Counted from the stretch's first letter, positions 17,293-60,379 are shown. The stretch is 64,000 nucleotides of DNA from Candidatus Poribacteria bacterium (GCA_963665235.2 CAXXLX010000002.1:128001-192000), one strand, 5' to 3'. Notes: generated from the letters alone by a model not told the origin. Program-made: numbers and translations.

Positions 17293-17557
17293 CCGATGTT
17301 GAAACATCACGCGGCCTACCATTGGACGATAGAAAACAAATCACACTGGGTTCGTGATGTCGTTTTAGGAGAGGATGCCTCAAAAGTGAGAACAGGCAGT
17401 ATCCCCCAAGTCATGGCAGCTTTACGCAACACCGCACTGGCGGTCTTACGATTTGCTGGGTATACCAAAATCTCCGAGACAATACGATCTTTCGCCGCAA
17501 AACCTAAACTCGCAGTTAACCTCATCACATGAAAATTCTTAAAACTAAATGGCCCTG
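17293..17557 (+). mobile_element. ISAs1-family 3' remnant within the array
   Basis: HWTIENKSHWVRDVVLGED...MAALRNTAL; ends in ggccctg. Confidence 0.85.
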
Positions 17558-19330: not shown

Positions 19331-20236
19331 TAGTAGATTTTAGAATTACGTATACATATTGATAATCTCGGTGAGTGACTTATCTGCGTTATATTTCCGG
19401 AGCCGCTTAATGTTGGCGAAGTCCTGTTCAATCGGATTGTAGTCCGGAGAATACGGGGGCAAAAACAAAAGGGTTGCCCCTGTTGCTTCTATCAGTTCTC
19501 TACTTCGCGCCGTTTTGTGAAAAGTCGCATTGTCCATTATCACTGTGTGCGATGCTGTGAGATGCGGGCATAAGTCTTTTGATAACCAAGTGTTGAAACG
19601 CTCGGCATTGCAGCTGCCTTTGAATAAGGTGTGTGCCGCAAACTTCCCCTCTATTCGTGCAGCTATCATATTCGTTTTGGGATGTTTTTGACCGGTAACT
19701 AATGCACGAACAGGGACACCTATAGGGGCATACCCATAAGGTCTAAAAGTCTCTGGCATAAAACTGCATTCGTCCACAAAAACTAAGGACTTCCCGTTCT
19801 GTTGTTCTATTTGCAACTGTTTTTGATAGGTTTGACGCTTTTGAGGGCAGTGCTCCTTATACCCTATTGTTTTTTTTTTCGCGTAAAACCCATTTTTTTC
19901 AATGTATACCAAATACAGAAGGTGGATACCTCGAAGTGATTTGCCCGCTCTGCTAGTGTTTGATCTGGAAAATCGGTAGCGTGTTTTCGGAGTGCCTCAA
20001 CAGAGAGTGCCCGGGGGCCTCGGGGGCCCGGTTTTTCATAAGTGAAAGGGTCTTCGGCAGAGAGCCACCGGTAAATGATAGTGCGGGAAACAGAAAAGCG
20101 TTTCGATGCTTCTGTTTTACTGCCACCTGCTTCAATAAAATCTAAGACGCGTTTACGTAAATCCTTGGAATATCTCATAATATATGAAGTATACCAAATG
20201 CAGAAAAAAATGTCAACGTATTTCCATAATCTACTA
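19331..20236 (-). mobile_element. Second, unrelated IS630 family element inserted into the TA of a CRISPR repeat
   Basis: gatTA-[tagtagatt...aatctacta]-TAaaag; removal restores the repeat. Confidence 0.93.
19346..20178 (-). CDS. IS630 transposase (two ORFs, probable frameshift at the A-run near 19875)
   Basis: MRYSKDLRKRVL HTH; FVDE, MDNATFH and LPPYSPDYNPIE DDE motifs. Confidence 0.9.
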
Positions 20237-20242
20237 TAAAAG

Positions 20243-20399
20243 TTCGAGACAATGCCTCAAAAGCAAGAACAGGCAGCATCCCCCAAGTCTCTTAACAAAC
20301 TGGCAGTCTTACGATTACGAAAAAAACGATCTTTCGCCTCAAAACCTAAACTCGCAGTTAACCTCATCACATGAAAATTCTTAAAACTAAATGGCCCTG
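20243..20399 (+). mobile_element. Degraded ISAs1 3' remnant (second copy)
   Basis: Last ~60 bp identical to the 17293-17557 remnant; upstream part gapped. Confidence 0.8.
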
Positions 20400-23300
20400 T
20401 ACCCCGAGTTTCTATTCCAAACTGGTTCGATTAAAAGCTTAGATTTCAGGAGGCGGTAAACGAGGCGAATGACGGTTTCTATTCCAAACTGGTTCGATTA
20501 AAAGAACAAACAATTAGCTGACACCCTCAAGGAGATAGATAGTTTCTATTCCAAACTGGTTCGATTAAAAGTGAATACAATAGTCCGACAAGCGTACCCA
20601 AAAAAAGTGTTTCTATTCCAAACTGGTTCGATTAAAAGTCTGTATTCGTAGAGAGACTGCCCCCCTCCGCGGGGGTTTCTATTCCAAACTGGTTCGATTA
20701 AAAGTGTACGTTTCCATACCAAGAGAGCGCGTGACTCAGTTTCTATTCCAAACTGGTTCGATTAAAAGTCATTTTCGAGTAAGATGGAGCCGTCTGTGAA
20801 CACAAGTTTCTATTCCAAACTGGTTCGATTAAAAGGCTGCTTGTCAGGAAACATTTTGACAATCTTTAGCGTTTCTATTCCAAACTGGTTCGATTAAAAG
20901 TTGCGTCGACCTTGTTCTTTTCGTCGCGTGCATGCGTTTCTATTCCAAACTGGTTCGATTAAAAGCGCGGCCTTGATTTTTACCTGAACATTCCGACCAT
21001 GTTTCTATTCCAAACTGGTTCGATTAAAAGGTGGTTGTATAGGTCAGGATGTTCTTACTTGTGATAGTTTCTATTCCAAACTGGTTCGATTAAAAGCATC
21101 TCAATCCCTGCAATCATCGTAGGCGAATGTGGGAGGTTTCTATTCCAAACTGGTTCGATTAAAAGAAAAAGAGAACCAACGAGGCAGAAGTGGGGAAGTC
21201 AAGTTTCTATTCCAAACTGGTTCGATTAAAAGCAACTGCTGAAACAAAAGTGGAAGCTTATAAAATAGGTTTCTATTCCAAACTGGTTCGATTAAAAGTC
21301 GCGCGGGCATCAGAGCCCCCCGAAAAAATTTTAGGTTTCTATTCCAAACTGGTTCGATTAAAAGATAAATACAGGTGATAATGTGTGTATAACACTACCG
21401 CCGTTTCTATTCCAAACTGGTTCGATTAAAAGGACACATCGGGGGATATTCATCGTTATCCCAAAAATGTTTCTATTCCAAACTGGTTCGATTAAAAGCA
21501 ATTGGGTATGCCTTTTCGGTTTCTCCTCCTTAGAGGTTTCTATTCCAAACTGGTTCGATTAAAAGAAGGGGAGAAAAATGATAGGTGAAAAAACCTTAGC
21601 GAATGTTTCTATTCCAAACTGGTTCGATTAAAAGATGGGAATGCCAGATGGGCACTTGGACATAAACCAGGTTTCTATTCCAAACTGGTTCGATTAAAAG
21701 CCAAGGCGGCTACAGATTACCCGGTTGGCAAGGTGTTTCTATTCCAAACTGGTTCGATTAAAAGGTGGACATTTCATTCTCCTTTCCAGATTCACTGGAA
21801 TGTTTCTATTCCAAACTGGTTCGATTAAAAGGGATACGGTTCAACCGTTGATGGCGTTGTTGAGAATGTTTCTATTCCAAACTGGTTCGATTAAAAGTTT
21901 CAATAACATCGCTCCTTGAGGATGTTATTGACAAGTTTCTATTCCAAACTGGTTCGATTAAAAGGCTGCAAAAATAAACCTTATGGCATACCACGGTTGG
22001 GGTTTCTATTCCAAACTGGTTCGATTAAAAGGAGTTTTGCCAGCGCCACCCGCTGGGCGGAGAGGAAGTTTCTATTCCAAACTGGTTCGATTAAAAGGTA
22101 TGCTGTGGATGCATCTTTAACAATTTATAATGGTTTCTATTCCAAACTGGTTCGATTAAAAGTTAACCGCGTATTACTTCCAAACGCGGAAGACGTACGT
22201 GTTTCTATTCCAAACTGGTTCGATTAAAAGGAACACACCATGGGGTCTCGTTCGACCGACTGAAGAAAGTTTCTATTCCAAACTGGTTCGATTAAAAGTC
22301 AACCTCCACCACAACAGGCACCACAACAGGCACGTTTCTATTCCAAACTGGTTCGATTAAAAGGATAGAGATTTGTTTGATTTGCCTGATAAAAAAGCAC
22401 GTTTCTATTCCAAACTGGTTCGATTAAAAGGAATATCGAGGAATATTTATTATCCCTCGGAAGTTCAGGTTTCTATTCCAAACTGGTTCGATTAAAAGTT
22501 GATGCGAACAATTACCCATACCACCGCGAGAAAGGTTTCTATTCCAAACTGGTTCGATTAAAAGTGTCCAACAAAATTAATCGTAATGGTGTTCAGGTAA
22601 GTTTCTATTCCAAACTGGTTCGATTAAAAGGATGGCAGCTACGCACTTCAGCAACTAAAACATCTAAGTTTCTATTCCAAACTGGTTCGATTAAAAGCAG
22701 AGGATTTTTACGCAATTCAGGTGCCGCCTATTTTTGAGTTTCTATTCCAAACTGGTTCGATTAAAAGGGCGGTTGTTCCTGTCTCTCCTGTGCCTATAGA
22801 CGCGTTTCTATTCCAAACTGGTTCGATTAAAAGTCAAATGCCCTTAGCACCCCAATCGGTACATCCGTATGTTTCTATTCCAAACTGGTTCGATTAAAAG
22901 GCGGTTGTTCCTGTCTCTCCTGTGCCTATAGACGCGTTTCTATTCCAAACTGGTTCGATTAAAAGTTGCCGATGCTAACAACGCTCTTTACATCAACGAA
23001 AAGGTTTCTATTCCAAACTGGTTCGATTAAAAGGAAATTGGGATACTCATTAACGATATTGAACGTAGTTTCTATTCCAAACTGGTTCGATTAAAAGTCG
23101 CACGTAATCGAGACTGCCGCCATTTTTTTAGAAAGGTTTCTATTCCAAACTGGTTCGATTAAAAGTTAAAAAATAGTTTTTTAAGGAGGTGAGAAACCTA
23201 AGTTTCTATTCCAAACTGGTTCGATTAAAAGTGCCCGATAGGGTTTATTGCAAATTGTTTTCTTCGAAGTTTCTATTCCAAACTGGTTCGATTAAAAGCG

Positions 23301-26300
23301 AAAGCATGACATCCCAACTTTCTTTTAGAATGAAGTTTCTATTCCAAACTGGTTCGATTAAAAGCGTCTGAATAGCATGCGAGTATCCGATTTTTACCAA
23401 AGTTTCTATTCCAAACTGGTTCGATTAAAAGAAATGTTCCAGCATGAAGCACGCAAATAGCAACCCAACGTTTCTATTCCAAACTGGTTCGATTAAAAGA
23501 CAGATAAAAGGAGACTAAGGTCACAGCATACCGGGCGTTTCTATTCCAAACTGGTTCGATTAAAAGAGAAACGCTTTGTTGCCCTTTTGCCTCCCTTTGT
23601 ATGTTTCTATTCCAAACTGGTTCGATTAAAAGTGCCATTCCGAGTTTGTTCGCTGTGGGTTTTCAGACCGCGGTTTCTATTCCAAACTGGTTCGATTAAA
23701 AGGTCTTGGTTGTAGAAACGAGGACGCTATCGTCTAACGTTTCTATTCCAAACTGGTTCGATTAAAAGCTCATAATTGAATGCAAATGTTAGCGAGGTTC
23801 CGATTAGTTTCTATTCCAAACTGGTTCGATTAAAAGACCGTTATCAGCGGAGACTTTCCAACCTGGACAGGTTTCTATTCCAAACTGGTTCGATTAAAAG
23901 CTGTTTTCGGGGTGTGGGTCCCAGGTGTCGGCTGTTCCGTTTCTATTCCAAACTGGTTCGATTAAAAGTATCCTTACAGCCTTTCTTCACACAGCATAGT
24001 TCGGTTTCTATTCCAAACTGGTTCGATTAAAAGGGTGTACAAGCACTTATAGATGACCTCACCGCACGGGTTTCTATTCCAAACTGGTTCGATTAAAAGG
24101 AGTGTTCCGAAGTATGCCATACCTTCCTGTAGTGTGTGTTTCTATTCCAAACTGGTTCGATTAAAAGCAGTGGTCGGCACAGGCGGGCCACATATTGAAT
24201 TGCAGAGTTTCTATTCCAAACTGGTTCGATTAAAAGGAAGGTCCCGGTGCGGTTGTCGCTGTTCCGGGTGCGTTTCTATTCCAAACTGGTTCGATTAAAA
24301 GGTCAAGTCTTTTGAGTCCATCCATTTCAGCAGACAGGTTTCTATTCCAAACTGGTTCGATTAAAAGGGTGAACGAGACACACGTTCACCCACAAGGGGG
24401 CTGGGTTTCTATTCCAAACTGGTTCGATTAAAAGGAACAACGTGACGTTCTTACCTCGGTACTTGCTGCAATGTTTCTATTCCAAACTGGTTCGATTAAA
24501 AGTGAAGTTGCATTTTAAGATGGGTTGTCAGGAGTTCGTTTCTATTCCAAACTGGTTCGATTAAAAGGACGGTAAAGGCTTCAAGGTTTTTGAAAAGACT
24601 AAGTTTCTATTCCAAACTGGTTCGATTAAAAGGTGCCAAAAGTTAGACCCGATAAAATCTTTGTTCTTACGTTTCTATTCCAAACTGGTTCGATTAAAAG
24701 TCGGATTCGCAGGCACTCGTGAAAAAATTAGCGACGTTTCTATTCCAAACTGGTTCGATTAAAAGTCTGTTGCAAAAAAATAAACCTGGTGGCATGCACG
24801 TTCGTTTCTATTCCAAACTGGTTCGATTAAAAGGATATTTGCAGACAGAATGAGTCGGTACCTCTATGGTGTTTCTATTCCAAACTGGTTCGATTAAAAG
24901 CGGCATGCGAATGAAGTCAATCAACGCCGCTGGCAAGAGTTTCTATTCCAAACTGGTTCGATTAAAAGTCCAAACCTTTATCGGTGCGCTCACCCTGACC
25001 CTTACGTTTCTATTCCAAACTGGTTCGATTAAAAGTCAGCAGAATCGGACACAAACGACACCCCTAAATCTGTGTTTCTATTCCAAACTGGTTCGATTAA
25101 AAGCCGCATTTAAGTCTGTTCGGATGCAACTTCTCGGTTTCGTTTCTATTCCAAACTGGTTCGATTAAAAGGTTTGTAGTTGTCTATTAGACGATTTGCG
25201 CGTGCAAAGTTTCTATTCCAAACTGGTTCGATTAAAAGACAATTGTAATTTCTGTCCATTGATGTTGTTTCTGCAGTTTCTATTCCAAACTGGTTCGATT
25301 AAAAGAAATTTTTCCAGATTTGAAACGTGAATATCTTCAGCCGTTTCTATTCCAAACTGGTTCGATTAAAAGGCTTGAGATTTCCAATCCGCCGCAATCC
25401 CTTGCATCGTTTCTATTCCAAACTGGTTCGATTAAAAGAACGGTCACGCCAGTAATTTCTCAACCACGCTTCGTAGTTTCTATTCCAAACTGGTTCGATT
25501 AAAAGAAGATAAAAAGTGATTAAAGAAGTGATAAGGCGGGTGCGTTTCTATTCCAAACTGGTTCGATTAAAAGAGTTCCTCCAGCAACAGTACCCGGAGA
25601 GATGGGCCGAGTTTCTATTCCAAACTGGTTCGATTAAAAGACCGACACAAGGCACACCGACACAAGGCACACCGACTACGTTTCTATTCCAAACTGGTTC
25701 GATTAAAAGGTTGATTACCATCTGGGATCATGAAGTTGCAATAAAGTTTCTATTCCAAACTGGTTCGATTAAAAGAAACTCGTGGCCTTGAGGCAGATAT
25801 TGTGATACTGAATGGTTTCTATTCCAAACTGGTTCGATTAAAAGCTACAGACGCTCGAACTGGAGCGACAACAACTGAAGGTTTCTATTCCAAACTGGTT
25901 CGATTAAAAGTGAACAAACAGCAGTGTCTGCTGTTGTGCTGCAAAGGTTTCTATTCCAAACTGGTTCGATTAAAAGCGCGGAACTAAACGATTTAGTTAA
26001 AGCACTCAAATCAAGTTTCTATTCCAAACTGGTTCGATTAAAAGACGGGGGTTGTTGGGTGAAGATGTTGTACTACTTGACAAGTTTCTATTCCAAACTG
26101 GTTCGATTAAAAGGGGGCGATGTTCATCAATTCTGAACGGTTTACAACTTTGTTTCTATTCCAAACTGGTTCGATTAAAAGCAAACGCTACCATCAAAGT
26201 CGAGAGCGGACGCAACAATGTTTCTATTCCAAACTGGTTCGATTAAAAGAAATCCGCTTTAGACAACTGGATGTGGTTTTTAAAAGTTTCTATTCCAAAC

Positions 26301-28189
26301 TGGTTCGATTAAAAGGCTATGAAGCCGCATTTTGTGGAGCACAGCCGATTTATCGTTTCTATTCCAAACTGGTTCGATTAAAAGGCAAACAACCCACGCT
26401 TAGATTAACCCCGCAACCGAGTTTCTATTCCAAACTGGTTCGATTAAAAGATCGCTTATTAGCAGGCTGTCCATTCACGAGTGTTGTTTCTATTCCAAAC
26501 TGGTTCGATTAAAAGCTACGGGTGTCATATTAAATATCCGAGATTTAATTACGCGTTTCTATTCCAAACTGGTTCGATTAAAAGGTATCCAAGCAGCAAA
26601 AAAAGGACAACGCCGTAAACGTTTCTATTCCAAACTGGTTCGATTAAAAGTAGCACTCTTAGAAAATGAGAACACAAAAGACACGTTTCTATTCCAAACT
26701 GGTTCGATTAAAAGGCTGCACCGCCTTTTCTTGCTTGAGTGCCGATTTCTGTGTTTCTATTCCAAACTGGTTCGATTAAAAGGCTGATTCGGTTTTGCCC
26801 AAAACAAAATTTCATCATGTTTCTATTCCAAACTGGTTCGATTAAAAGTCCTCGTCGGTTTCGGGTGCGGTTTCGGGTGCGGTTTCGGTGTTTCTATTCC
26901 AAACTGGTTCGATTAAAAGGGGATGCAATTTATAGTCGACGGACTTTAACCGTAAGTTTCTATTCCAAACTGGTTCGATTAAAAGAAATCGCCCACACGC
27001 GACGTAACACCGAAATGGGAGAGTTTCTATTCCAAACTGGTTCGATTAAAAGGACGGAGGTAACAACATGAAACGTTTTCGTTTGTGGGTTTCTATTCCA
27101 AACTGGTTCGATTAAAAGGCGTGCTGTCTGGCAAAATATCGGATAAAATATCCTCGGTTTCTATTCCAAACTGGTTCGATTAAAAGGCCTGGAATTGTGA
27201 TTTCCCGCCATCAATTTTTATAGTTTCTATTCCAAACTGGTTCGATTAAAAGGGTAGGGGGGCTCGATGGCATCATTCAGGAGATTCAGTTTCTATTCCA
27301 AACTGGTTCGATTAAAAGAGACAAGCAACAGCTGGAAGAAGCCCTCCGAATCACCCGTTTCTATTCCAAACTGGTTCGATTAAAAGGAACCCCAACCCCA
27401 ACCCCAAATGTTCAAAGACGCAACAGTTTCTATTCCAAACTGGTTCGATTAAAAGGATGAGATATTATTACGGAAAACTAATTAAAGCAAGTTTCTATTC
27501 CAAACTGGTTCGATTAAAAGCACCCCACATATCGCCTATACCCTCGTCCCCCTCTCACGGTTTCTATTCCAAACTGGTTCGATTAAAAGTATGAACTTGT
27601 GGAACCCTCTAAAGTGTGTGAGTCCGGTTTCTATTCCAAACTGGTTCGATTAAAAGGCACGACATTGCGTTGACAGCAAAGTGCATGCTACTTTCGTTTC
27701 TATTCCAAACTGGTTCGATTAAAAGTGAACTCGCGTGTGATAGCAATAGCAACAAAACGAGCGAGTTTCTATTCCAAACTGGTTCGATTAAAAGGGTTGC
27801 ACTGAGCATTTTTAGCTGTTCGACAACATGTTTCTATTCCAAACTGGTTCGATTAAAAGTTCCAACCAATAGAAAAGTTTTCAGAAGTAATAGCGTTTCT
27901 ATTCCAAACTGGTTCGATTAAAAGCGCCATTGATGGACATGTAAAACAACCGTTTGCTAGGGTTTCTATTCCAAACTGGTTCGATTAAAAGCCATACTTG
28001 GGACAAGATAAATTGTCCCCGGCGTGTTTCTATTCCAAACTGGTTCGATTAAAAGGTTCTTCGGACAATTTGATAACCCATGGCTCCCACGAGTTTCTAT
28101 TCCAAACTGGTTCGATTAAAAGTGAGACGGAGCGCGGTGAAACATTTTTCATCAAGGCGGTTTCTATTCCAAACTGGTTCGATTAAAAG

Positions 28190-28445: not shown

Positions 28446-28709
28446 CTATAACAGGTTCGTGGCGGGATTTTTGTCCACACCCATGATCTCTTTGTTCATC
28501 CATCTGGCATCGCGCAATTGGTAGATGATGACAGAGTCTTTTTCAGGATCGGTGATTGCTGCGAGACCGGATTTAACACGGGAGAATTGGGCCTTCGTCA
28601 ATTGTCCCTCAAAAACCGAGTTTTGAACCCAATTGAGATGTTGTCGAAGATATTTACATACCTTTGCAACACGTTCAACCCCAATATCGTAAACGAGAAT
28701 GATATACAT
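28446..28709 (-). CDS. cas2: CRISPR-associated endoribonuclease Cas2
   Basis: YIILVYDI...WVQNSVFEG...DSVIIY; RBS aaggagg. Confidence 0.95.
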   Translation of the reverse strand: MYIILVYDIGVERVAKVCKYLRQHLNWVQNSVFEGQLTKAQFSRVKSGLAAITDPEKDSVIIYQLRDARWMNKEIMGVDKNPATNLL

Positions 28710-28734
28710 TAGTATATGCCTCCTTTGAAAAAGG

Positions 28735-29168
28735 TTACCACCAAGGCCGTAATGCCTGATACGTCTCCATGCCAACGAGGTGTTTGATGAGTTTGTAACA
28801 TTCTAAGCGGATAAGGCGTTGATAAGAAACCTTGCGCTTGAGTTGTCGATGCGATACGGTCTGCTTAAGTTGTTCATCAAATTCCGCGATGAAACTTTTT
28901 CGTCCCTGCTCGTTGAGATAACAGGCACCGACATCTTTTTCAAAATGTTTCGTTTCGTTGAGTTGCCCTCTGTTAAACATTCGGAAAATAATCCGATCGA
29001 TGATGAGAGGTTTGAAAATCTCAGCGAGGTCAAGCGAGAGCGAGAAACGTCTGTCGCCGGGCTCATGAAGAAAGCTGATCGTTGGATTGAGCTGCGTTCG
29101 GTAGATCTCCGTGAGACAGGCGGCATACATCAACGAGTTGCCGAAGGAGATGGCGGCGTTGATAGGAT
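28735..29168 (-). pseudogene. cas1: Cas1 (type I-B), C-terminal ~145 codons only
   Basis: NPINAAISFGNSLMY, SFLHEP, LSLDLAEIFKP, LIRLECYKLIKH; 5' end abuts a CRISPR repeat. Confidence 0.93.
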
Positions 29169-29328
29169 TATTCCAAACTGGTTCGATTAAAAGACAACTT
29201 CCCCTGAACACTATAAAAGAGGTTGTTCATAGTTTCTATTCCAAACTGGTTCGATTAAAAGGCCCAGCGTAGTAGCCGTAGTAGTTGAACACATGGAAGT
29301 TTCTATTCCAAACTGGTTCGATTAAAAG
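29169..29328 (-). CRISPR. Mini-array: two full repeats, one truncated repeat, two spacers
   Basis: Same repeat as the main array; distal repeat lacks GAAAC and is fused to cas1. Confidence 0.95.
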
Positions 29329-29540
29329 GCTTTGCTCAGCCAGCATTGATATTATACTACATCCTTATACTGTGTGTCAAATTTATTTTTTTCGTTTAGC
29401 AGGCAAATTTCTGTCGACTGCCGGTAACGCAAATTTCTTGGGAGGTTGACGGATCGTTGTGTGACAAGGGATTATCCCGTTTTTTTACGGAATTCGTGAG
29501 TGAGACAAGCACGGAAACTGCTCATCGCAGCGAGGTCGAC
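29329..29540 (-). promoter_or_regulatory. CRISPR leader 2, a diverged copy of leader 1 with an intact promoter
   Basis: Colinear with 28190-28408 with scattered substitutions and a short indel; TTGACA-N18-TATAAT retained. Confidence 0.92.
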
Positions 29541-29623
29541 GTATTCGGAGGTGTGCTCCATTTGCAGACATAGAGATAGTTAACGGCGATGCCGGTGATG
29601 TTGGTGTTGTCACGGTTTTGCAT
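29531..29623 (-). pseudogene. cas4: Cas4 N-terminal remnant
   Basis: RBS plus MQNRDNTNITGIAVNYLYVCK, then in another frame MEHTSEYVDL, resembling type I-B Cas4 N-termini; located after cas3. Confidence 0.8.
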
Positions 29624-29652
29624 TTGTCGTTTCTCCTTTTTCGTGATAAAAA

Positions 29653-32037
29653 CTATAAGCGGTTGGTGCTGTGTTCATCTATGAGCAACCCGAGTGTTTC
29701 ATCGTAGCGAACCTTTATGAACCACTGTGCAAACTTTCCAAAGCGTTTACGTTCATACAGCTGGCCATCTCGACGCAGTCTTGCAAATTGACGGTCGCTA
29801 ATTTGGGCAATATAGGCTCTGGCTTCATAGTACTGGCGTTCTTCAATTTTCGCCCAGAAGGCTTCTTCATAAGATTCGGGCACAACTTCAACACTCTTAA
29901 AGAGTTCATTAAATTCCTTGCGCCCTTCAGAATCTTCGATAAATGGAACAATGCCTTCTAGGTGCCGTTCAAATAATTGTTTCGCCCTATTAAATTTCTC
30001 GGTTTCTTTTTCATTGTAACCATCACAATAGACTTTATCGATAAGACCTTGGATTTCCGATTCGTGCAGAGTCTCTACAGGTGCGAACGCATCTTTAGTA
30101 CGTTCCACCTTCTCGGAGGAGTAGATAAAGTGATCGTTTTCTCCACCTTCCTGGCAAATATGTACATCACAGATACCTTTTTCACCTTTCCTATTGATCC
30201 GCCCGAAACGCTGAATAAGGGCATCTATCGGTGCTGGTTCTGAAAAGAGGCAATCAAAATCAATGTCAAGCGAAACCTCAACCGCTTGCGTACCGACAAG
30301 GAGATCGGCGTTTTCAAGTTCCTGTTCAATACGCTCTCGATCGCGAAGGATAAATCGACTGTGAAGGAGTTTAGCATTTTCAGTTACGTCTCGTAATTGT
30401 TCGAACACACTTTGTGCCTGCTTAACGGTATTACAAACAACCATGACCCGCTCACCTTGCGCGAGTCGTTCTACAATCATGTGGATTGCATCGTGGATGT
30501 CGCCATCAAGTAAACGGACGCGGTGTCGCGTGAATTTGTTCCGTTCTTCCGGTTCCATTTCAACCAGTGCAAGTTCCCCGATTGCCTCGTTAATCTTCTG
30601 TTTAAGAAACTTTGGCATTGTAGCAGTCATAATGCAGAATTTTGCATCGTAGTCTTTACGCAGTCGTTCTACCATCGTCAAAATAAGCGCGGTTGTGTGC
30701 GGATCATAGGCGTGGATTTCATCAAAGATAAAAAGCCCTTTGGACATCTCAGCCATCTGCATCTCAAACCCGCGTATACCAAAAAACGCCTTCAGCAGTT
30801 GAAAAGGCGTTAGCACCTTGTACGGACGACAGATCTTCCGAGTGAGATTGAGATTCTGACTGGCTAACGCGGCTGCATCTTGAGGTGTATACTTCTTATC
30901 AACGCGTGCTTGATTCCCCGTAGGGGCGAGGTTTCCTCGCCCTCCCGCAGCAGTATAATCTTTATCAACGAGTGCTTGATTCTCCGTAGGGGCGAGGTTT
31001 CCTCGCCCTCCCGCAGCAGTATAATCTTTATCAACGAGTGCTTGATACATAAAATAGGCAGCCTTACCATGCAGCATACCGATTTTATCGTCAGATACGA
31101 GTTCCTTCAGCCGATTATACATAGCGTTTATACTGGCGGTGTAGGGTAAAACATAAAAGACCCGGTTGCCAAGTGTTTCACATTGGTTGTTGTCTGACCA
31201 GAGCAAAGCCGCTTCAGTTTTGCCGGAACCGGTGGGCGCGGAGAGCATGAGTTGTCCGGTTGTTTCGCCTGAGGCTTTTTGAAAAGGTTGCCATCCGTGA
31301 AATTGTCGTTTTTTTTCTTCTGCCTTCTCTTTAACATGTTGTGTCAGTTCTGCTTCAAAGTTATCAAGTGCGGCCTGGATCTCATTTTTGCCAGCAGAAG
31401 CGAGGTGGTCACAGGCAATCATGCATCCGCGCATAAGCATGCCATAGGTGCTGTGCAACGGAGTTAATTCACCGTCTTCGAAGTCATTCCAATAGGGAGC
31501 CAGAAATTCTCGGTAACCGCTAATAAGCTCATCTCTCGAGATGACAGGTGTCCATAAGCACTCCTCAGTAGGACACCACTGAGACACCTGTTCCTGAATT
31601 TTCATTAAAGCATCCCAATTCGGCGCGAGTTCTGCAATTCGTCCTTGCCATTCCTCGTAACCCTCTTTATTTTCTTGCCAGGCCGGATGTCTCTCCACTA
31701 GGGTCTCAATATCCTTGTGATGTGTTAAAATCGCGAGCGCGATCGCTTGTTTGACTGGTTCTGGGTATTGAAGCGTGACAACAAATCCAGTCGACAAGAT
31801 CTCGTGGCGATAGTTCCATCGCGTGTCATCTATGAGTTGTTTTTGAAAACCGATTGCTGCCTTTCCGAAATCGTGAAGTGCGACAGCGTAAAAGAGATGC
31901 TCAAAGAAATCGGGCTCTTTGGCAACATCAGCTAAAAATGGCATCCGTTTTCGAAGACTATCATACACCGCGAGGCAATTTTCGGTGTGGTCAAAAAGTG
32001 TTTCTTTTGGATCGCTTTTCGCAAGTAATATTGGCAT
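29653..32037 (-). CDS. cas3: CRISPR-associated helicase/endonuclease Cas3 (HD plus SF2 helicase)
   Basis: HDFGK, HE, THH, DHLAS, APTGSGKT, DEIH, TAT, QAVEVSLD, QRFGRINR. Confidence 0.97.
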   Translation of the reverse strand: MPILLAKSDPKETLFDHTENCLAVYDSLRKRMPFLADVAKEPDFFEHLFYAVALHDFGKAAIGFQKQLIDDTRWNYRHEILSTGFVVTLQYPEPVKQAIALAILTHHKDIETLVERHPAWQENKEGYEEWQGRIAELAPNWDALMKIQEQVSQWCPTEECLWTPVISRDELISGYREFLAPYWNDFEDGELTPLHSTYGMLMRGCMIACDHLASAGKNEIQAALDNFEAELTQHVKEKAEEKKRQFHGWQPFQKASGETTGQLMLSAPTGSGKTEAALLWSDNNQCETLGNRVFYVLPYTASINAMYNRLKELVSDDKIGMLHGKAAYFMYQALVDKDYTAAGGRGNLAPTENQALVDKDYTAAGGRGNLAPTGNQARVDKKYTPQDAAALASQNLNLTRKICRPYKVLTPFQLLKAFFGIRGFEMQMAEMSKGLFIFDEIHAYDPHTTALILTMVERLRKDYDAKFCIMTATMPKFLKQKINEAIGELALVEMEPEERNKFTRHRVRLLDGDIHDAIHMIVERLAQGERVMVVCNTVKQAQSVFEQLRDVTENAKLLHSRFILRDRERIEQELENADLLVGTQAVEVSLDIDFDCLFSEPAPIDALIQRFGRINRKGEKGICDVHICQEGGENDHFIYSSEKVERTKDAFAPVETLHESEIQGLIDKVYCDGYNEKETEKFNRAKQLFERHLEGIVPFIEDSEGRKEFNELFKSVEVVPESYEEAFWAKIEERQYYEARAYIAQISDRQFARLRRDGQLYERKRFGKFAQWFIKVRYDETLGLLIDEHSTNRL
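30896..31046. repeat. In-frame 66-bp tandem duplication carrying a GTAG-REP inside cas3
   Basis: QALVDKDYTAAGGRGNLAPTxN twice; gtaggggcgaggtttcctcgccc in each unit. Confidence 0.93.
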
Positions 32038-32063: not shown

Positions 32064-32804
32064 TTAAATGTCAAAAAGTTGCATCTGTTCTCCGCTCACG
32101 TTCGGAATTTCATGCTCTTTGTCAATCGGTTTCTTGCTTTTCTCAATTGGAACTGTAAATTCCCCGGGGATGCGTTCGTGCAAATACACCCCCCAGTCCT
32201 TTTCTGAATCGTGCAAGACCTTACCGTTGTATTTAATCGGCTCTGTTACGAGACAATAGGCTCGAATACCGCAAGGTCGACGAGGAATTTCCGCCGTAAA
32301 GTGCGTAGGTAACGCTTGCACCTGTCCGTGAAGCTGCTCATCAGGAAAAGGGAGTATCGTATTTTGATAGGTTGTCTCCGCCTTATCCTCCAGTTCAATT
32401 TCCTTTACAGATTTGACGGTCGCTAAATCAGAAGAACGTCCCAAAAGCAAGGCGTAACGGGGCCGTTCAAAGGCCCCCTTTAGACATATCTCCGGGGTAT
32501 AGAGATAAAGTTCCGGTTGAACGAGAAATTCGCGTTTGTTGACATTAGATTTCCCTTTTAATAAATTTTTCCCTTTGTATGGAAATTCGTAAACAGTTTC
32601 CAAATCAACAGACTTTCCTTTACTCTGAAAAACAAATCCAATGGCGACATCATGCGGTGTGACCCAATCACCTTTTGCAGCAGTAAGGAGGCCATAAAGT
32701 GTCGACAGCGGGGGCAACGGAAGAGTCGGTTGGAATCCGCTAATAAATAGCGGATTCCGAAACGAGGCAACCCACCCGGTAATGTGAACGCGAATCACTT
32801 TCAT
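32064..32804 (-). CDS. cas5: CRISPR-associated Cas5 (type I-B)
   Basis: ASFRNP...TLPLPPLSTLYGLL; LLLGRSSDL. Confidence 0.93.
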   Translation of the reverse strand: MKVIRVHITGWVASFRNPLFISGFQPTLPLPPLSTLYGLLTAAKGDWVTPHDVAIGFVFQSKGKSVDLETVYEFPYKGKNLLKGKSNVNKREFLVQPELYLYTPEICLKGAFERPRYALLLGRSSDLATVKSVKEIELEDKAETTYQNTILPFPDEQLHGQVQALPTHFTAEIPRRPCGIRAYCLVTEPIKYNGKVLHDSEKDWGVYLHERIPGEFTVPIEKSKKPIDKEHEIPNVSGEQMQLFDI

Positions 32805-33817
32805 GGTGAATCCTCAACATGTTCCTCCAACTTTTCTGCAAGCTGGGCAATTACCTTGTTTGGCGAATCATAAACGACTTCGTTGCGGTCATCTGCCAAT
32901 GCAGAAAGGTCCTCGTCTAACTCATCCATAAACCCGCTCCGCCTGCCGATGTAAATTGTGTCACAGAACCGATCTTCGTAATCATCCATAACTTCGCGGA
33001 GTGCGTCGAGGCTAAGTTGACCGCCTTCGTCTTTCTCAACAACGAGATTCATGAAAGGGTGATTCCCGCCATCAAGGACAGACAGGATGATTAATTTAGG
33101 TGTAACGTCGGTGAGATGAGATGTTAACTTTGCGCCGCCACTGAGGAGTGGGAGTGCCTCAAGCGTTTGCCGGCATCGGCGAACCCGTGTCTCTTTTGGG
33201 AGTACCCACACCGGCTTTTCACCAACTTGTGTGCCTCCTGCGTCTTGGATAGTCTGAACATAACTTGGAGTAATATTCTTATAACCTGTCCTATTAATAT
33301 CCGAGAATGTCCCAACCGCGCTAAGGTCCAAAGAAAAAATACCCTTAAGCACACATGAATAGAACTCATGTATGTGAATCGCAGGAAATTCTTCCTGTCT
33401 CGCCATTACGCCATAATCTGGAGTAGGTCGTTGGGGTTCAATTGAAATCAGCGGTGAATTTTTCAATGGTGAAACGCGGGTAACAGTTTCTTTAGGTTTT
33501 CCCTTTGGTGCTCTCATATAACCGAAGACATCATCGTCGTCATATACCGCTGGGGAAGCATCGGTGTAGACAACCTGAGTGTGCCCTTTACCACTACGCG
33601 TGATTGGAGAAACGTTCCAACTAAACTCATTTTCCAGCGTAGTTCGCCACCAATTTCGCCAAGCTTGTCCAGAGACATAAGGATAAGGGTCTTTTCCTCT
33701 TCTCAAGACTTTGACCTTAACGATGTTTTCTGCTCTTTCTGATAGATCTTCTCCTGCGTTGTTTAGCGCAGAATAAGGGGCATCAATTAGGGTTAATCCA
33801 ATAAGGTGTTTAGACAT
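32801..33817 (-). CDS. cas7: Cas7 (Cst2/DevR family)
   Basis: SALNN, PYVSGQAWR, DDDVFGYM, TRVSP, TDVTP. Confidence 0.93.
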   Translation of the reverse strand: MSKHLIGLTLIDAPYSALNNAGEDLSERAENIVKVKVLRRGKDPYPYVSGQAWRNWWRTTLENEFSWNVSPITRSGKGHTQVVYTDASPAVYDDDDVFGYMRAPKGKPKETVTRVSPLKNSPLISIEPQRPTPDYGVMARQEEFPAIHIHEFYSCVLKGIFSLDLSAVGTFSDINRTGYKNITPSYVQTIQDAGGTQVGEKPVWVLPKETRVRRCRQTLEALPLLSGGAKLTSHLTDVTPKLIILSVLDGGNHPFMNLVVEKDEGGQLSLDALREVMDDYEDRFCDTIYIGRRSGFMDELDEDLSALADDRNEVVYDSPNKVIAQLAEKLEEHVEDSP

Positions 33818-33819
33818 GA

Positions 33820-34212
33820 TTAGTCCTCCTCATTTGCTTCGGTTTCAGATACATCGTCTGCATCCGATGTATTATCTTCGTCAAAATCAACAAAACCTTT
33901 TTCTTGCAACCAATTATGGAGTCGTTCATAAACACGAAAAAGCAGCAAGTCGCGTGTCTCCCCAAACTTCGTTGCACTAGAATCTTCGCTTTCTGGGAAA
34001 AGATGTTCCATATAATCGTCAATTGAAAAAAGCGGGTTCGGTGCTCCCTGTTTAATTCTCTCCCGAATGATATATAATAGGACGTTTCGGCACGCCTCGT
34101 AACTTTTGGCACGTTCCAACCGAACAAGTCGCTTATCGCTTCCAGATTTGCGGATGCATTCTGCGATGAGATCGCCGACTTGTTTAATTTTTTCAAGTCG
34201 TGTTTGTTCCAT
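33820..34212 (-). CDS. cas11: Probable Cas11 small subunit translated from an internal start in cas8
   Basis: AAGGAGGT-N7-ATG in frame within the cas8 3' end; 130-aa ORF MEQTRLEKIKQVG... Confidence 0.7.
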   Translation of the reverse strand: MEQTRLEKIKQVGDLIAECIRKSGSDKRLVRLERAKSYEACRNVLLYIIRERIKQGAPNPLFSIDDYMEHLFPESEDSSATKFGETRDLLLFRVYERLHNWLQEKGFVDFDEDNTSDADDVSETEANEED

Positions 34213-35217
34213 AGTTCTAACCTCCTTTAGGTAGAGGGAAAGCAATTCCCAATTTCCGCGTGGTTTTCGGATTCGCCTATTTAAAAAGTATCCAAGAATT
34301 GAGACGTCTTGCAACAGGTTTTCATACACACGGTTTGCCCGGTTCTTGTAATCTTTTTCGGATTTCACTTCATCCCAATTGACTTTCCGTAACCGCTTCG
34401 GACAATTTCCTGCCAAGCGGTTTTAAATTCGCCTTGATACACAACGCGCAAAAATCGAAACATTGGGGCAGGCATATAGAAAATTTCAAGTTCAGGGTTT
34501 GTCGTTATAATTTGTAAAGCAGTAAACCTGCATAGATATATTCTCATCAGCACGCATTTCCTGATATTGTGTCATTTCCCGAGCCATGTAGAACACACCG
34601 TTGCGTGGATTTGCGTAGCCAGGGTTAAAACATCCCGTTATGTCTTTTCGAAGGTGTTGATCGCGAATATCCTTGATACAGACCCGTCGCCCAACTCCTC
34701 AATGCCTTCCATGAATTAGAATGGAGTGTAAGAAACCTACCACCAGTTGCCATGAATACCAATGGGGATAACTGAATAGCAATAGCACATGCAGAACAGT
34801 AACCTGTCCCCTCAACGAAAGGCAGAAAAAAAGTTACGTAATCCGCCAGATCCTGTTAAAGGTATGTCTTGTTTTTAAAAGAAAAATGTTGGCATCCCGT
34901 CTACCGCATCCCATACAATCCCCAGTTTGGTCCAAATCGCAGATAGTTTCCAAATAATTTTTGCACTCCTCTTTAAGTAATTCAACACGATTTCGCTTAC
35001 TGTACGCAGGGTTAGTCAAAACACTATTTGGAAAAATACTGTGTAAATTTCCCCAACCAGCATTTGTTTGCATCATCGGCGCAACATCATTAACAACCTT
35101 CTCAAGGTCATCAGGGGTAATCTGCTCAGGTTGGACACCGCGCCCTAACCATTCACAGATTCCACAAACACCAGCATCCACAAATGGATTGCCCATCAAT
35201 TTTTCATAGATTGGCAT
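33820..35217 (-). pseudogene. cas8: Cas8 large subunit (Cst1/CXXC-CXXC type), multiply frameshifted as sequenced
   Basis: GNPFVDAG N-terminus; CMGC and CSAC motifs in different frames; located between cas6 and cas7. Confidence 0.82.
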
Positions 35218-35593
35218 GCTATTCACCTCCTTTCAAAAATATTTAGTTTAGATCAGACCGAGTCTTACCCTATTTTGTCACCGCACTAGTGCTGCCATAA
35301 ACGGCCTGCTCCGATAGAGCAGCAGAAACAGCACATCGCGTTGCTAAACATATCGCTCCGATGGAGCGGAAATCACCAGAAAAGCGTATCTATCTATTGG
35401 GGTCGGTAGCATATTTAAGCGCGGTTTCAAGGCAACTCGCGTCTTGGAATTCAGGTTTTCGTACGATAAATCGCCCTTGCCAATATTAACGGGCGATAAA
35501 TCACTCTTGCCCCAAATAGGTTTCCGTATTACTCAAACCTACGTAATTATACCATATAAATTAGCATTTGTCAAATTAAAATTTATTTATCGT

Positions 35594-36346
35594 TTACAAC
35601 CCCACCATTCCAAAACCGGCACTATTCTTATCCCCAAACCCGCATTCGTAGCCGACCTGAATAAGCGAAGGACTACCTGTCACCGTAAACGGACACAGCA
35701 CACCCCGAATTTTAATACCTTTAAAATCCACCAGACGCGTAACGCGGCCCCGTTTTCGTTGTATATAGGCAGTATCATAACGAAAAGTTAACGAATCATC
35801 AGCAGGCGTGCGGCCGTAAATCGCCTGATGTTTACCTATTAAGTTTTGACGAACAAGCGACGAAAACTCCGGGTCGTCTGGTAAACAGTAATGCGTTCCC
35901 TCTTTTCCATCTCGTTCCCGTACAGTAGACATAGTAATAGGAGAGAGGCATCGGAACCGCATCTCCTGTCGAAAATGGGGAACGCGCGGCACCCTTACAT
36001 CTTCGACCCGTAGCTGGTGCCTGCCGATATCTAAACTGCCCACGGTAAGCAACGTATCCGCAAAATGCGACAAAAATTGTTCTACAGGAGAAGACACAAA
36101 CCACATCAGAGTTGATTTAAAATGGATTAACTCACCGTCGATGCGTCTCCGGTCCGCCATCAGTTGTGAGAAGGTAAAAAGTTTGAAACGTTTCGCATCC
36201 GCATGGTATCCATCATCGTGTAAAAAGCTAGCGTATTCCGGATTAGACTCAGCGAGGAAACGATAGATGATACCTGTGAGTAGGTGATTATAGTTAATAG
36301 GTAGGGTTATACCGTTGCCTACATCGGCAAGGATATGAATTCGCAT
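35594..36346 (-). CDS. cas6: CRISPR-associated endoribonuclease Cas6
   Basis: FLHDDGY, FKLFTFS, C-terminal GFGDKNSAGFG loop. Confidence 0.96.
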   Translation of the reverse strand: MRIHILADVGNGITLPINYNHLLTGIIYRFLAESNPEYASFLHDDGYHADAKRFKLFTFSQLMADRRRIDGELIHFKSTLMWFVSSPVEQFLSHFADTLLTVGSLDIGRHQLRVEDVRVPRVPHFRQEMRFRCLSPITMSTVRERDGKEGTHYCLPDDPEFSSLVRQNLIGKHQAIYGRTPADDSLTFRYDTAYIQRKRGRVTRLVDFKGIKIRGVLCPFTVTGSPSLIQVGYECGFGDKNSAGFGMVGL

Positions 36347-59690: not shown

Positions 59691-59730
59691 AAATAGCATA
59701 TCGGTCACCCCGGCTACGATATGCTATTTT
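59691..59730 (+). terminator. Probable intrinsic terminator hairpin
   Basis: aaatagcatatcg...cgatatgctatttt after the stop at 59668. Confidence 0.6.
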
Positions 59731-60379
59731 CACCTAAGTTGCCACCTTTGTAGCATAATCTTCCAGATTGTGCACATAGTAGCATAATCTTCATGAAGAT
59801 TAATTTATTAATTCGGTAATAATCCGACATAGCGTAGCAATGCTTGTGAGCCGCCTCTAAACTGTGTCATAAAGTCAAGCACCTTGTCTTTGAGGGTCTC
59901 CCAGATTGTGCATAACATGCACTATTTCAATCGGGAGTTTTGTACCGATTTTCTCGGAAAGTTTTCCGGTCCAATTCGGCGGGGTCATAATCTTCCAGAT
60001 TGTGCACATAGTAGCATAATCTTCCAGATTGTGCACATAGTAGCATAATCTTCCAGATTGTGCACATAGTAGCATAATCTCGCTTCTTTAGCAGCCCTTT
60101 CTTTGTGTGGAGAAGTTTCGAAGATAAGCGGGTTCCCCTGTATCGCGGAGTTCAATCAGTCTTTGGCGTTCATCTTTACTGAGTTCAAGATTGTGCACAT
60201 AGTAGCATAATCTTCCAGATTGTGCACATAGTAGCATAATCTTCCAGATTGTGCACATAGTAGCATAATCTTCCAGATTGTGCACATAGTAGCATAATCT
60301 TCCAGATTGTGCATATTTGTGTGCAAACCGGAAGGGAACGGGACAAAGTCTAAAAACTTATAAGTAGCAAATTGGGTTA
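59731..60379 (-). mobile_element. Decayed IS-like element filled with 29-bp REP tandems
   Basis: Ends cacctaagttgccac / gtagcaaattgggtta; about nine copies of gtagcataatcttccagattgtgcacata; HTH-like fragment LELSKDERQRLIELRDTG. Confidence 0.65.

What the first reader, a model, noticed from the sequence alone, without database searches (positions are those of the whole stretch)
28735..29623. A second leader plus mini-array has replaced the core of the cas4-cas1 adaptation module
Seen on the minus strand: cas3, ~30 codons of cas4 (itself with a small deletion), a junction at GTCGACC shared by cas4 and the leader, a diverged leader copy with an intact promoter, repeat-spacer-repeat-spacer, then a repeat cut after GGAATA and joined to cas1 at NPINA. 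The two spacers differ from the newest spacers of the main array and the leader has diverged, so this is not a simple local duplication. Established: Cas1 needs its N-terminal domain and all three catalytic residues. Inference: a CRISPR cassette from a sister locus or strain recombined into, or was ectopically integrated in, its own acquisition genes. This freezes a ~200-spacer memory and places cas2 downstream of a leader promoter.
Basis: partly seen in the sequence, partly recalled or inferred. Interest (0 to 1): 0.75.

Follow-up and report, generated by a model that had tools for sequence, protein, structure and literature searches.

The report
CRISPR locus that lost its integrase
In a sponge-symbiont (Poribacteria) genome, the genes that add new CRISPR memories have been cut out and replaced by a tiny two-spacer array whose newest spacer was copied from the very piece of the integrase gene (cas1) that is now missing, a likely scar of the immune system attacking itself.

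Summary
On the minus strand a type I-B operon runs cas6, cas8b, cas7, cas5, cas3. It continues with a 33-codon cas4 stump, a second leader with a perfect promoter, repeat-spacer-repeat-spacer and a repeat cut after 25 nt. That repeat is fused to cas1 at codon 188, followed by cas2, leader 1 and a 198-repeat array. Public contigs from three runs of one study bridge both junctions.

New here:
- The newest mini-array spacer (Sa) is a cas1 sequence, codons 63-75, from the deleted segment. It matches cas1 in 48 of 49 Poribacteria loci.
- The cas4/leader junction is a 10-nt direct repeat (GTCGACCTCG).
- A third leader with a 111-repeat orphan array lies on another contig, behind a 15-nt cas2 remnant.
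- The held genome (92.6% complete) has no other I-B cas1 or cas4, only a type III-associated cas1.
- cas8b carries five frameshifts.

Best reading (about 0.5): a cas1-matching spacer made the locus self-targeting, and survivors deleted cas4-cas1-cas2. A second leader-array unit was then joined downstream of the protospacer.

This is a new variant of known self-targeting-associated cas loss. Interest is moderate.

The parts
35594..36346 (-). cas6 (250 aa, open)
   Evidence: NCBIfam TIGR01877, E 3e-42
33820..35226 (-). cas8b pseudogene. Five frame changes (frame 1>2>3>1 near gene nt 345-541, and 1>2>1 near nt 720-850) and several in-frame stops.
   Evidence: Translation. It is 59% identical over 473 aa to a relative's 469-aa Cas8b, and the conserved sequence continues in shifted frames. 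rpoB, rpoC and two dnaE-type genes (17.8 kb in all) are open, so assembly error is unlikely.
32801..33817 (-). cas7 (338 aa, open)
   Evidence: TIGR02585, E 1e-57
32064..32804 (-). cas5 (246 aa, open)
   Evidence: TIGR01895, E 3e-42
29653..32037 (-). cas3 (794 aa, open). It carries an in-frame 44-aa insertion made of two copies of a 66-nt REP-like element at about 30900-31040.
   Evidence: TIGR01587 and TIGR01596; alignment with a relative's Cas3; repeat family D17/D18
29531..29623 (-). cas4 stump. It has the ATG, 14 in-frame codons, a 34-nt internal deletion (between 29561 and 29560), then MEHTSEYVD out of frame. Its last 10 nt (29540-29531, GTCGACCTCG) are shared with the start of leader 2.
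   Evidence: Sequence; comparison with relatives' cas4
29329..29540 (-). Leader 2, with promoter TTGACA-18-TATAAT at 29380-29351
   Evidence: Alignment of the three leaders; promoter scan, 12 of 12
29299..29328 (-). Mini-array repeat 1 (30 nt, identical to the consensus)
29262..29298 (-). Spacer Sa (37 nt), equal to cas1 codons 63-75 (FHVFNYYGYYAG) in the sense orientation. Its target lies in the deleted part of cas1.
   Evidence: It matches cas1 at the homologous site in 48 of 49 Poribacteria loci with 4-10 mismatches. It has no other copy in the genome.
29232..29261 (-). Mini-array repeat 2 (identical to the consensus)
29194..29231 (-). Spacer Sb (38 nt), origin unknown
   Evidence: No match in the genome, in 111 family genomes at 3 or fewer mismatches, in 49 loci, or in phage records
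29169..29193 (-). Repeat 3, cut after 25 of 30 nt (..GGAATA). It overlaps cas1 by 1-3 nt.
28735..29169 (-). cas1 C-terminal fragment (residues 188-331 of a 331-aa reference). It is open and 88-93% identical in amino acids to relatives. It keeps LHEPG and DLAE but lacks the N-terminal domain and GYEG.
   Evidence: TIGR03641 positions 181-324 of 324
28446..28712 (-). cas2 (88 aa, open)
   Evidence: PF09827, E 2e-23; TIGR01573
28190..28408 (-). Leader 1, with promoter at 28241-28212
12428..28189 (-). Main array of 198 repeats. It is interrupted by IS630-type insertions (about 14247-15515 and 19335-20407) and a 311-nt element (17294-17604).

Best explanation
This is the scar of a type I-B CRISPR-Cas locus that turned on its own integrase gene.

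Shown:
- The adaptation core (cas4 from codon 33 or so, and cas1 codons 1-187) is missing.
- In its place sits a leader with an intact promoter and a two-spacer array.
- The leader-proximal, and therefore last acquired, spacer Sa is a sense-strand copy of cas1 codons 63-75. That is a sequence inside the missing segment.

Inferred path:
1. Leader 2 and its array were the resident array downstream of cas4-cas1-cas2. The array acquired Sa, either from the cell's own cas1 or from a near-identical foreign allele.
2. Cascade and Cas3 then attacked the chromosome at cas1.
3. Survivors carried a deletion between the 10-nt direct repeat GTCGACCTCG in cas4 and at the start of the leader. This removed cas4C, cas1 and cas2 together with the target.
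4. A second paralogous or allelic unit (cas1-cas2-leader 1-long array) was joined to the third repeat of the resident array. The join used 1-3 nt of microhomology and lies at cas1 codon 188, downstream of the Sa protospacer. It arose either by deletion between neighbouring loci or by homology-facilitated illegitimate recombination with DNA of a sister strain.
5. The locus has since decayed: five cas8b frameshifts, a 34-nt cas4 deletion, a REP-like insertion in cas3 and IS630 copies in the array.

The roughly 310 I-B spacers of this genome can no longer be extended by a cognate integrase.
For: Structure and junctions.

Both junctions are bridged by public contigs in three runs.

Sa is cas1 sequence. 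It matches the homologous site in 48 of 49 Poribacteria loci with 4-10 mismatches of 37. That is the divergence expected for this genus, whose cas1 C-terminal fragment is 76.5-79.7% identical in nucleotides to relatives.

Such spacers are rare. Only 3 of 2,744 Poribacteria I-B spacers hit cas or leader regions, and two of the three are in this genome.

Sa is the leader-proximal spacer. No further copy of its target exists in the genome.

A 10-nt direct repeat sits in cas4 (GT[T/C]GACCTCG in most relatives) and at the start of leaders 2 and 3.

Sa encodes YYAG. Among the 48 matching loci that variant occurs only in loci whose cas3 is of the same type as this cas3 (L045, L063, L064, L065, L066). 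This is a weak hint that Sa came from the resident cas1.

Poribacteria genomes can hold two I-B adaptation-array units with diverged leaders and near-identical repeats. One isolate is an example.

cas3 type is scattered over the cas1 tree (12 changes), so these modules re-assort.

No I-B cas1 or cas4 exists elsewhere in the genome.

Published precedent, read as passages only:
- Escape from self-targeting by deletion of the target or of cas genes (PMC6990116; PMC7708048).
- Short arrays with spacers matching cas1, cas3 and csy2 in E. coli genomes that lack those genes (PMC2886076).
Against: - The cell's own cas1 N-terminus no longer exists, so a perfect match of Sa to self cannot be shown.
- The PAM of this system is unknown, and the 5' flanks of the protospacer in relatives (CCG, GCA, GCG, GCT) show no shared motif.
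- A spacer in the sister array (C1 spacer 50) matches the surviving cas1 fragment with 5 mismatches of 36. Foreign cas1 alleles were therefore sampled as well, and Sa may never have matched self.
- cas8b is broken. If that happened first, self-spacers would have been harmless and the deletion neutral.
- Spacer uptake is thought to be biased to DNA next to the array (recalled, not checked here). That raises the chance of a coincidence.
- The order of the two junction events, and the origin of the leader-1 unit, are not resolved. The cas1 fragment of this genome sits on a long unresolved branch.
- The runs that bridge the junctions may be the assembly's own source.
Confidence: 0.5

Rival explanations
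1. Neutral decay without autoimmunity. The I-B system had already lost interference (cas8b frameshifts). Adaptation went on without counter-selection and picked up a self-spacer from the neighbouring cas1. Later, unrelated illegitimate deletions and rearrangements between paralogous leader-array units removed cas4-cas1. That Sa's target lies in the deleted segment is then a coincidence, made likelier by both being next to the leader.
For: - cas8b has five frameshifts while 17.8 kb of housekeeping genes have none.
- The locus shows further decay: a 34-nt cas4 deletion, a REP-like insert in cas3 and IS630 copies in the array.
- Two other Poribacteria genomes have damaged adaptation modules with no cas-matching spacer found. 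In G016 cas6 is followed by only the last 55 cas1 codons. In L042 cas4 codon 8 is fused to cas1 codon 50 or so.
- Another genome carries a spacer that matches its own leader (L055).
Against: - There is no sign of rampant self-acquisition. Of 303 spacers in this genome only Sa and C1 spacer 50 hit cas DNA, and none hits the rest of the genome over more than 26 nt.
- Sa is exactly the last spacer acquired by its array.
- Five frameshifts in cas8b against none in 5.6 kb of the other cas genes is not what uniform long-term decay predicts.
Confidence: 0.27
2. The resident unit is cas4-cas1-cas2-leader 1-main array. A foreign or sister-locus cassette (leader 2 plus two and a half repeat units) replaced the 1.1 kb between cas4 codon 33 and cas1 codon 188 in one double illegitimate recombination. 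Such an event may have been viable only because it removed the target of the incoming anti-cas1 spacer.
For: - Leader 2 is diverged from leader 1 (92%) and is the most diverged of the three leaders, with 10 unique substitutions against 6 and 6.
- A sister locus with the same repeat exists.
- Both junctions show microhomology.
- In run X6, from a different study, cas2 and the cas1 fragment are present nearly unchanged, while leader 2, the cas4 stump and cas3 are not covered.
Against: - It needs two simultaneous illegitimate joins around a 350-nt piece.
- The 10-nt repeat in cas4 and at the leader start is present in cis in every locus of this family, so a plain deletion gives the left junction more simply.
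- No donor locus with leader 2 was found in this genome, which holds exactly three leader copies.
- Neither mini-array spacer was found in 111 family genomes.
Confidence: 0.15
3. Local tandem duplication followed by deletion. Unequal exchange between the third repeat and cas1 duplicated cas1C-cas2-leader-two spacers. The two copies diverged, and a later deletion between the GTCGACCTCG repeats removed the upstream cas4C-cas1-cas2.
For: The repeat/cas1 junction has the topology of a tandem-duplication joint, and all parts could derive from one locus.
Against: - The leaders differ by about 8%, while the 85 nt of mini-array repeats carry no change.
- Sa and Sb are absent from the main array.
- A 1.3-kb tandem duplicate would have had to persist for a long time.
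- New spacers added at a truncated repeat would copy its aberrant end, which is not seen.
Confidence: 0.06
4. Assembly artefact: a chimeric join of CRISPR-containing reads from different strains.
For: - The genome is a metagenome bin (5.65% contamination).
- The same runs hold a minor variant with an intact cas4 at about a tenth of the depth.
Against: - Contigs in three runs cross each junction with 0-1 differences.
- Both junctions lie in unique sequence with microhomology, not at repeat borders.
- The leader copy is diverged, not collapsed.
Confidence: 0.02

Closest known systems
Self-targeting spacers with loss or decay of cas genes (Stern et al. 2010, as cited in PMC6990116 and PMC7708048; experimental escape by target or cas deletion, PMC3630108, seen in the search listing only)
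   Same: The spacer is leader-proximal and its target belongs to the host lineage. The target is removed by a deletion and the cas genes are degraded.
   Different: The target is the locus's own integrase gene, and the array sits exactly on the deletion scar. The protospacer survives only in relatives, so self-identity is inferred.
'Anti-CRISPR' arrays of E. coli: short type I-F arrays whose spacers match cas1, cas3 and csy2 in genomes lacking those genes (Touchon and Rocha 2010, PMC2886076; passages read)
   Same: A very short array carries a spacer against cas1 of its own subtype, in a genome that lacks the matching cas1 segment.
   Different: - Here only one of the two spacers matches a cas gene.
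- The array is not conserved in other genomes (0 of 111 family genomes).
- The interference genes are still beside it, but cas8b is broken.
- The array is embedded in the operon.
Orphan or secondary CRISPR arrays served in trans, and cross-type adaptation (PMC8092290; search listing and abstract only)
   Same: The genome holds arrays without a cognate adaptation module: the C1 array, and now all the I-B arrays. It also holds a cas1 of another type.
   Different: The type III-associated array uses a different 37-nt repeat and leader. No evidence was found that its Cas1 serves the 30-nt I-B repeats.
Virus-borne mini-arrays and solitary repeat units (recalled from memory; no paper read here)
   Same: A leader with one or two spacers, outside a normal array context.
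   Different: There are no mobile-element genes at the flanks. The cassette lies between cas4 and cas1 remnants of a chromosomal operon.

Membership tests
Type I-B CRISPR-Cas locus | Cas8b large subunit with Cas7, Cas5, Cas6 and Cas3, followed by cas4-cas1-cas2 and an array | tested here: met
   NCBIfam hits to Cas6, Cas8b1/Cst1, Cas7/Cst2, Cas5b, Cas3, Cas1b and Cas2. The gene order is the same as in relatives. cas8b, cas4 and cas1 are damaged.
Functional adaptation module (Cas1-Cas2, with Cas4 in I-B) | Full-length Cas1 with the N-terminal domain and the Glu/His/Asp catalytic triad | tested here: not met
   Only residues 188-331 remain. The GYEG motif (residues 155-158 in the reference) and the N-terminal domain are missing. 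Assignment of the triad to GYEG, LHEPG and DLAE rests on motif spacing recalled from E. coli Cas1.
Functional adaptation module (Cas1-Cas2, with Cas4 in I-B) | A second cognate cas1 or cas4 elsewhere in the genome | tested here: not met
   The cas1 family search finds only this fragment and a type III-associated cas1. The cas4 family search finds nothing in a 92.6% complete genome.
Self-targeting spacer / CRISPR autoimmunity scar | The spacer matches a sequence of the host's own genome | tested here: inconclusive
   The target segment is deleted here. Sa matches the orthologous site of cas1 in 48 of 49 Poribacteria loci with 4-10 mismatches, as expected for this genus.
Self-targeting spacer / CRISPR autoimmunity scar | Leader-proximal position and an inactivated target or system | tested here: met
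   Sa is spacer 1 of the mini-array. The target is deleted, and cas8b, cas4 and cas1 are damaged.
Self-targeting spacer / CRISPR autoimmunity scar | A functional PAM next to the protospacer | not testable with these tools
   No full-length spacer-target pair was found from which a PAM could be derived.
Anti-cas 'guard' array (sensu Touchon and Rocha 2010) | A short array with cas-matching spacers that is conserved across lineages lacking the cas genes | tested here: not met
   Neither Sa nor Sb was found at 3 or fewer mismatches in 111 other genomes of the family. This genome is the only species of its genus that is held.
Integrase-made ectopic (neo-CRISPR) integration | Junctions at repeat borders and new repeats copied from the target site | tested here: not met
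   The right junction lies 25 nt inside a canonical repeat. The left junction lies at the leader start. A complete leader is present.
Mobile-element-borne mini-array | Flanking phage, plasmid or transposon genes | tested here: not met
   The flanks are the cas4 stump and the cas1 fragment.

The most novel reading that the evidence does not exclude
A CRISPR memory polices its own locus. The last spacer taken up by the resident array was cut from cas1. It forced excision of cas4-cas1-cas2 through a built-in 10-nt direct repeat (cas4 and leader start) that is present in loci of this family.

The spacer then acted as a filter. When a second adaptation-leader-array unit recombined in, only a join downstream of the protospacer (cas1 codon 188) could survive.

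The recurrent 'array fragment fused to adaptation-gene remnant' joints would then mark a general, autoimmunity-driven way in which I-B adaptation modules are lost and arrays are merged in Poribacteria. Three such joints were seen: this one, the cas2 remnant before the C1 array, and the array in front of the cas4::cas1 fusion in L042.
Probability: 0.22. Interest if true: 0.7.

Novelty: new variant of a known kind. Interest (0 to 1): 0.5.

Why it matters
Natural cases in which both the cause and the outcome of CRISPR autoimmunity can be read in one locus are rare. Here the presumed offending spacer, the deletion junctions with their microhomologies, and the remains of the target gene lie within 900 bases.

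The locus shows how a large immune memory (about 310 spacers in two arrays) can be cut off from renewal. It suggests that the cas4/leader direct repeat is a weak point of this locus type.

Together with two other damaged adaptation modules found in Poribacteria, it gives testable material on how often sponge symbionts lose spacer acquisition while keeping their arrays.

It does not open a new class of system.

Tried and rejected
- **cas4 stump in the wrong frame.** In one search the cas4 stump was given one base out of frame (29520-29622). The result of '0 families' for it means nothing.
- **Origin of Sb.** No match was found in 11 relatives' loci at 9 or fewer mismatches, in the own genome, in 111 family genomes at 3 or fewer mismatches, in 49 Poribacteria loci, or in phage records. 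Its frame-2 peptide (MNNLFYSVQGKL) vaguely resembles a Cas1 N-terminus. All 47 Poribacteria Cas1 N-termini that could be read begin M[SAP]RNYY.., so this idea was dropped.
- **A closer cas1 allele.** Exact searches of metagenome contigs with Sa and with a 36-nt piece of the cas1 fragment gave 0 hits each. Sa at 3 or fewer mismatches gave 0 of 111 family genomes.
- **PAM.** No full-length protospacer was found for any of 303 own spacers or for relatives' spacers in this genome. The array against phage records gave no match. The flanks of the Sa and C1-spacer-50 protospacers share no motif.
- **Different histories for cas3 and the cas1 fragment.** The cas1-fragment tree leaves this genome on a long unresolved branch, and cas3 type is scattered over the tree (12 changes). 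No statement about this genome was possible.
- **Relaxed selection on the cas1 fragment.** There are 9 synonymous and 9 non-synonymous unique changes here, against 54 and 30 summed over 11 relatives. This is suggestive only.
- **Run X6.** It covers cas2 and the cas1 fragment up to 29154 but not leader 2, cas4 or cas3. Whether it holds an intact cas1 cannot be told from contigs.
- **Spacer heterogeneity at the leader end of the main array.** Not examined. The laid stretch began at 28300.

Full report
**What is there**

The window is part of contig C2 of a 5.3-Mb, 4-contig genome (92.6% complete, 5.65% contamination). Its closest relatives are metagenome bins named Candidatus Poribacteria, the sponge symbionts.

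On the minus strand lies a type I-B CRISPR-Cas operon:
- cas6: 35594-36346
- cas8b: 33820-35226
- cas7: 32801-33817
- cas5: 32064-32804
- cas3: 29653-32037

- A cas4 start codon at 29623 with 14 in-frame codons.
- A 34-nt deletion, judged against relatives' cas4, that throws MEHTSEYVD out of frame.
- Leader 2 from 29540, with a perfect TTGACA-18-TATAAT promoter.
- Two full repeats and two spacers: Sa at 29298-29262 and Sb at 29231-29194.
- A third repeat cut after 25 nt. It is joined to cas1 at the codon that corresponds to N188 of a 331-residue reference Cas1.
- An intact cas2, leader 1 and a 198-repeat array follow.

**Is it real**

Contigs built independently from public runs cover the stretch. 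In three runs of one study, a contig of about 950 nt runs from leader 1 through cas2, the cas1 fragment, the cut repeat and Sb into repeat 2. It shows one synonymous difference. Contigs of 136-145 nt cross from leader 2 into the cas4 stump with no difference.

These runs may be the source of the assembly. They exclude a chimera of the long-read assembler, but they are not independent biology. The same runs hold, at roughly a tenth of the depth, a diverged variant whose cas4 continues with ..RKLWFYQNH. A relative with an intact cas4 therefore lives in the same samples.

*1. Spacer Sa is cas1 sequence.* A BLAST of the region against two relatives gave an unexpected 29-30-nt hit of the first mini-array spacer inside their cas1. 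Sa aligns to the same site, cas1 codons 63-75 (FHVFNYYGYY..), in 48 of 49 Poribacteria loci with 4-10 mismatches of 37. This divergence is what the surviving cas1 fragment shows against the same relatives (76.5-79.7% nucleotide identity).

The site lies in the segment that is missing here. No other copy exists in the genome.

Such spacers are rare. Of 2,744 spacers from 49 Poribacteria loci and this genome, three hit cas or leader DNA:
- Sa.
- Spacer 50 of this genome's second array. It matches the surviving cas1 fragment at 28887-28922 with 5 mismatches of 36.
- One spacer of another genome, which matches that genome's own leader.

*2. The left junction is a 10-nt direct repeat.* Relatives' cas4 reads GT[T/C]GACCTCG at ..YVDLG.., and leaders 2 and 3 start with GTCGACCTCG. 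A plain deletion between these two copies, about 1.5 kb apart in every locus of this family, would remove cas4C, cas1 and cas2 and give exactly this junction. The right junction shares only 1-3 nt.

*3. The genome holds a third unit.* On contig C1 a 111-repeat array with the same repeat follows leader 3. In front of leader 3 lie the last 15 nt of cas2 and a degenerate partial repeat, and there are no cas genes nearby. Its seven newest repeats carry a GAAAT variant, so it went on acquiring spacers after it arose.

The three leaders are about equally distant: 92.2, 93.6 and 92.2% identity. There are exactly three leader copies and no further cas remnants at the nucleotide level.

*4. There is no cognate replacement.* The only other cas1 belongs to a type III-D-like locus about 100 kb away. 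That locus has a different 37-nt repeat. No cas4 was found.

*5. Interference is probably dead too.* cas8b needs five frame changes to be read, and the conserved protein sequence continues in the shifted frames. By contrast rpoB, rpoC and two dnaE-type genes (17.8 kb) and the other cas genes are open. The frameshifts are therefore likely real and recent.

**How it most likely came about**

The simplest chain is as follows.
1. Leader 2 headed the resident array behind cas4-cas1-cas2.
2. That array took up Sa.
3. Cascade and Cas3 attacked cas1.
4. Survivors had deleted the interval between the two GTCGACCTCG copies.
5. The cas1C-cas2-leader 1-array unit was then joined to the third repeat of the resident array, downstream of the protospacer. 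This happened either by a deletion between two neighbouring loci or by recombination with DNA of a sister strain. In the second case the join would be anchored homologously in the array and illegitimate at the other end.

Several observations make a second unit plausible:
- One Poribacteria isolate carries two I-B adaptation-array units with diverged leaders and near-identical repeats.
- cas3 type is scattered across the cas1 tree.
- In a run of a different study, cas2 and the cas1 fragment occur almost unchanged without leader 2, the cas4 stump or cas3.

Sa encodes Ala where most relatives have Ser. The five loci that share Ala all carry the same cas3 type as this locus. This is a weak hint that Sa came from the resident cas1.

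All of these steps are inference. What is shown is the structure, the identity of Sa, the microhomologies and the lack of another I-B integrase.

**Rivals**

- **Neutral decay** cannot be excluded. If cas8b broke first, a self-spacer would have been harmless. Two other Poribacteria genomes also show damaged adaptation modules with no cas-matching spacer found.
It needs two simultaneous illegitimate joins and a donor that was not found.
- **A local tandem duplication** fits poorly. The leaders have diverged by 8% while the mini-array repeats are unchanged. Sa and Sb are also absent from the main array.

**Comparison with what is known**

Escape from self-targeting by deletion of the target or of cas genes is established (passages of PMC6990116 and PMC7708048). 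So is the leader-proximal position of self-targeting spacers.

The closest precedent is the short E. coli I-F arrays whose spacers match cas1, cas3 and csy2 in genomes that lack those genes (PMC2886076, passages).

Searches for a leader plus mini-array inside cas4-cas1 found no description of this arrangement. They used the terms 'spacers targeting cas genes' and variants, 'truncated cas1' with 'CRISPR array' and 'leader', and 'Poribacteria' with 'CRISPR' and 'spacer'. Only listings and abstracts were seen for those hits.

I therefore file it as a new variant of a known kind.

**Verdict**

Interest is moderate (0.5): a clean natural example, not a new mechanism.

Noticed in passing
G000:C1:1688747-1696526 (locus L012): Orphan I-B array of 111 repeats with the same repeat and its own leader 3. 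It is preceded by the last 15 nt of cas2 and a degenerate partial repeat. An IS630 transposase and 33-nt tandem repeats lie upstream. The seven newest repeats end in GAAAT instead of GAAAC.
   Followed up: partly
G000:C1:1692361-1692396 (spacer 50 of the C1 array) versus window 28887-28922: This spacer matches the surviving cas1 fragment with 5 mismatches of 36. Three of the five are at synonymous positions. A different cas1 allele of the same family was therefore once sampled as a protospacer.
   Followed up: partly
window 33820-35226 (-): cas8b needs five frame changes to be read, while all other cas genes of the operon are open. Three of the shift sites are not in long homopolymers.
   Followed up: partly
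window about 30900-31040 (-): Two tandem copies of a 66-nt REP-like palindromic element (family CGTAGGGGCGAGG.., also found at eight other places in the window) are inserted in frame in cas3, between helicase motifs I and II. They add 44 residues.
   Followed up: partly
window 14247-15515, 17294-17604, 19335-20407: The main array is interrupted by two IS630-type insertions (HTH and DDE_3 ORFs) and a 311-nt element that shares an end sequence with one of them.
   Followed up: partly
G000:C2:246000-265999 (locus L011): A second CRISPR-Cas locus with a 37-nt repeat (GTTTCAATTCCC..), an intact cas1, Csx19 and RAMP genes. A group II intron-type reverse transcriptase ORF lies next to cas1.
   Followed up: no
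L042:4670-6432 (another Poribacteria bin): A degenerate array of about 13 repeats lies directly in front of an in-frame fusion of cas4 codons 1-8 to cas1 codon 50 or so. This is another damaged adaptation module with an array upstream. It is the only one of 49 loci with repeats upstream of cas1.
   Followed up: partly
L027 (G016:C1:4143000-4153000): In this relative cas6 is followed directly by the last 55 codons of cas1, then cas2, a leader split by an IS, and the array. cas8b through cas4 are missing.
   Followed up: partly
L055:6902-6934 versus its spacer 7: A spacer of another Poribacteria genome matches that genome's own leader region (33 of 36 nt aligned, 100% identical) on the opposite strand.
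   Followed up: no
window 29572-29638 in runs X2, X4, X5: A minor contig variant, at about a tenth of the depth, continues with an intact cas4 sequence. A relative with an undamaged cas4 shares the samples.
   Followed up: no
window 59696-60358; also L011:13146-13510 and upstream of the C1 array: Arrays of 29-33-nt tandem repeats (GTAGCATAATCTTCCAGATTGTGCACATA and relatives) recur at several places in the genome. Their function is unknown.
   Followed up: no
window 22769-22803 and 22901-22935: The same 35-nt spacer occurs twice in the main array, two units apart.
   Followed up: no
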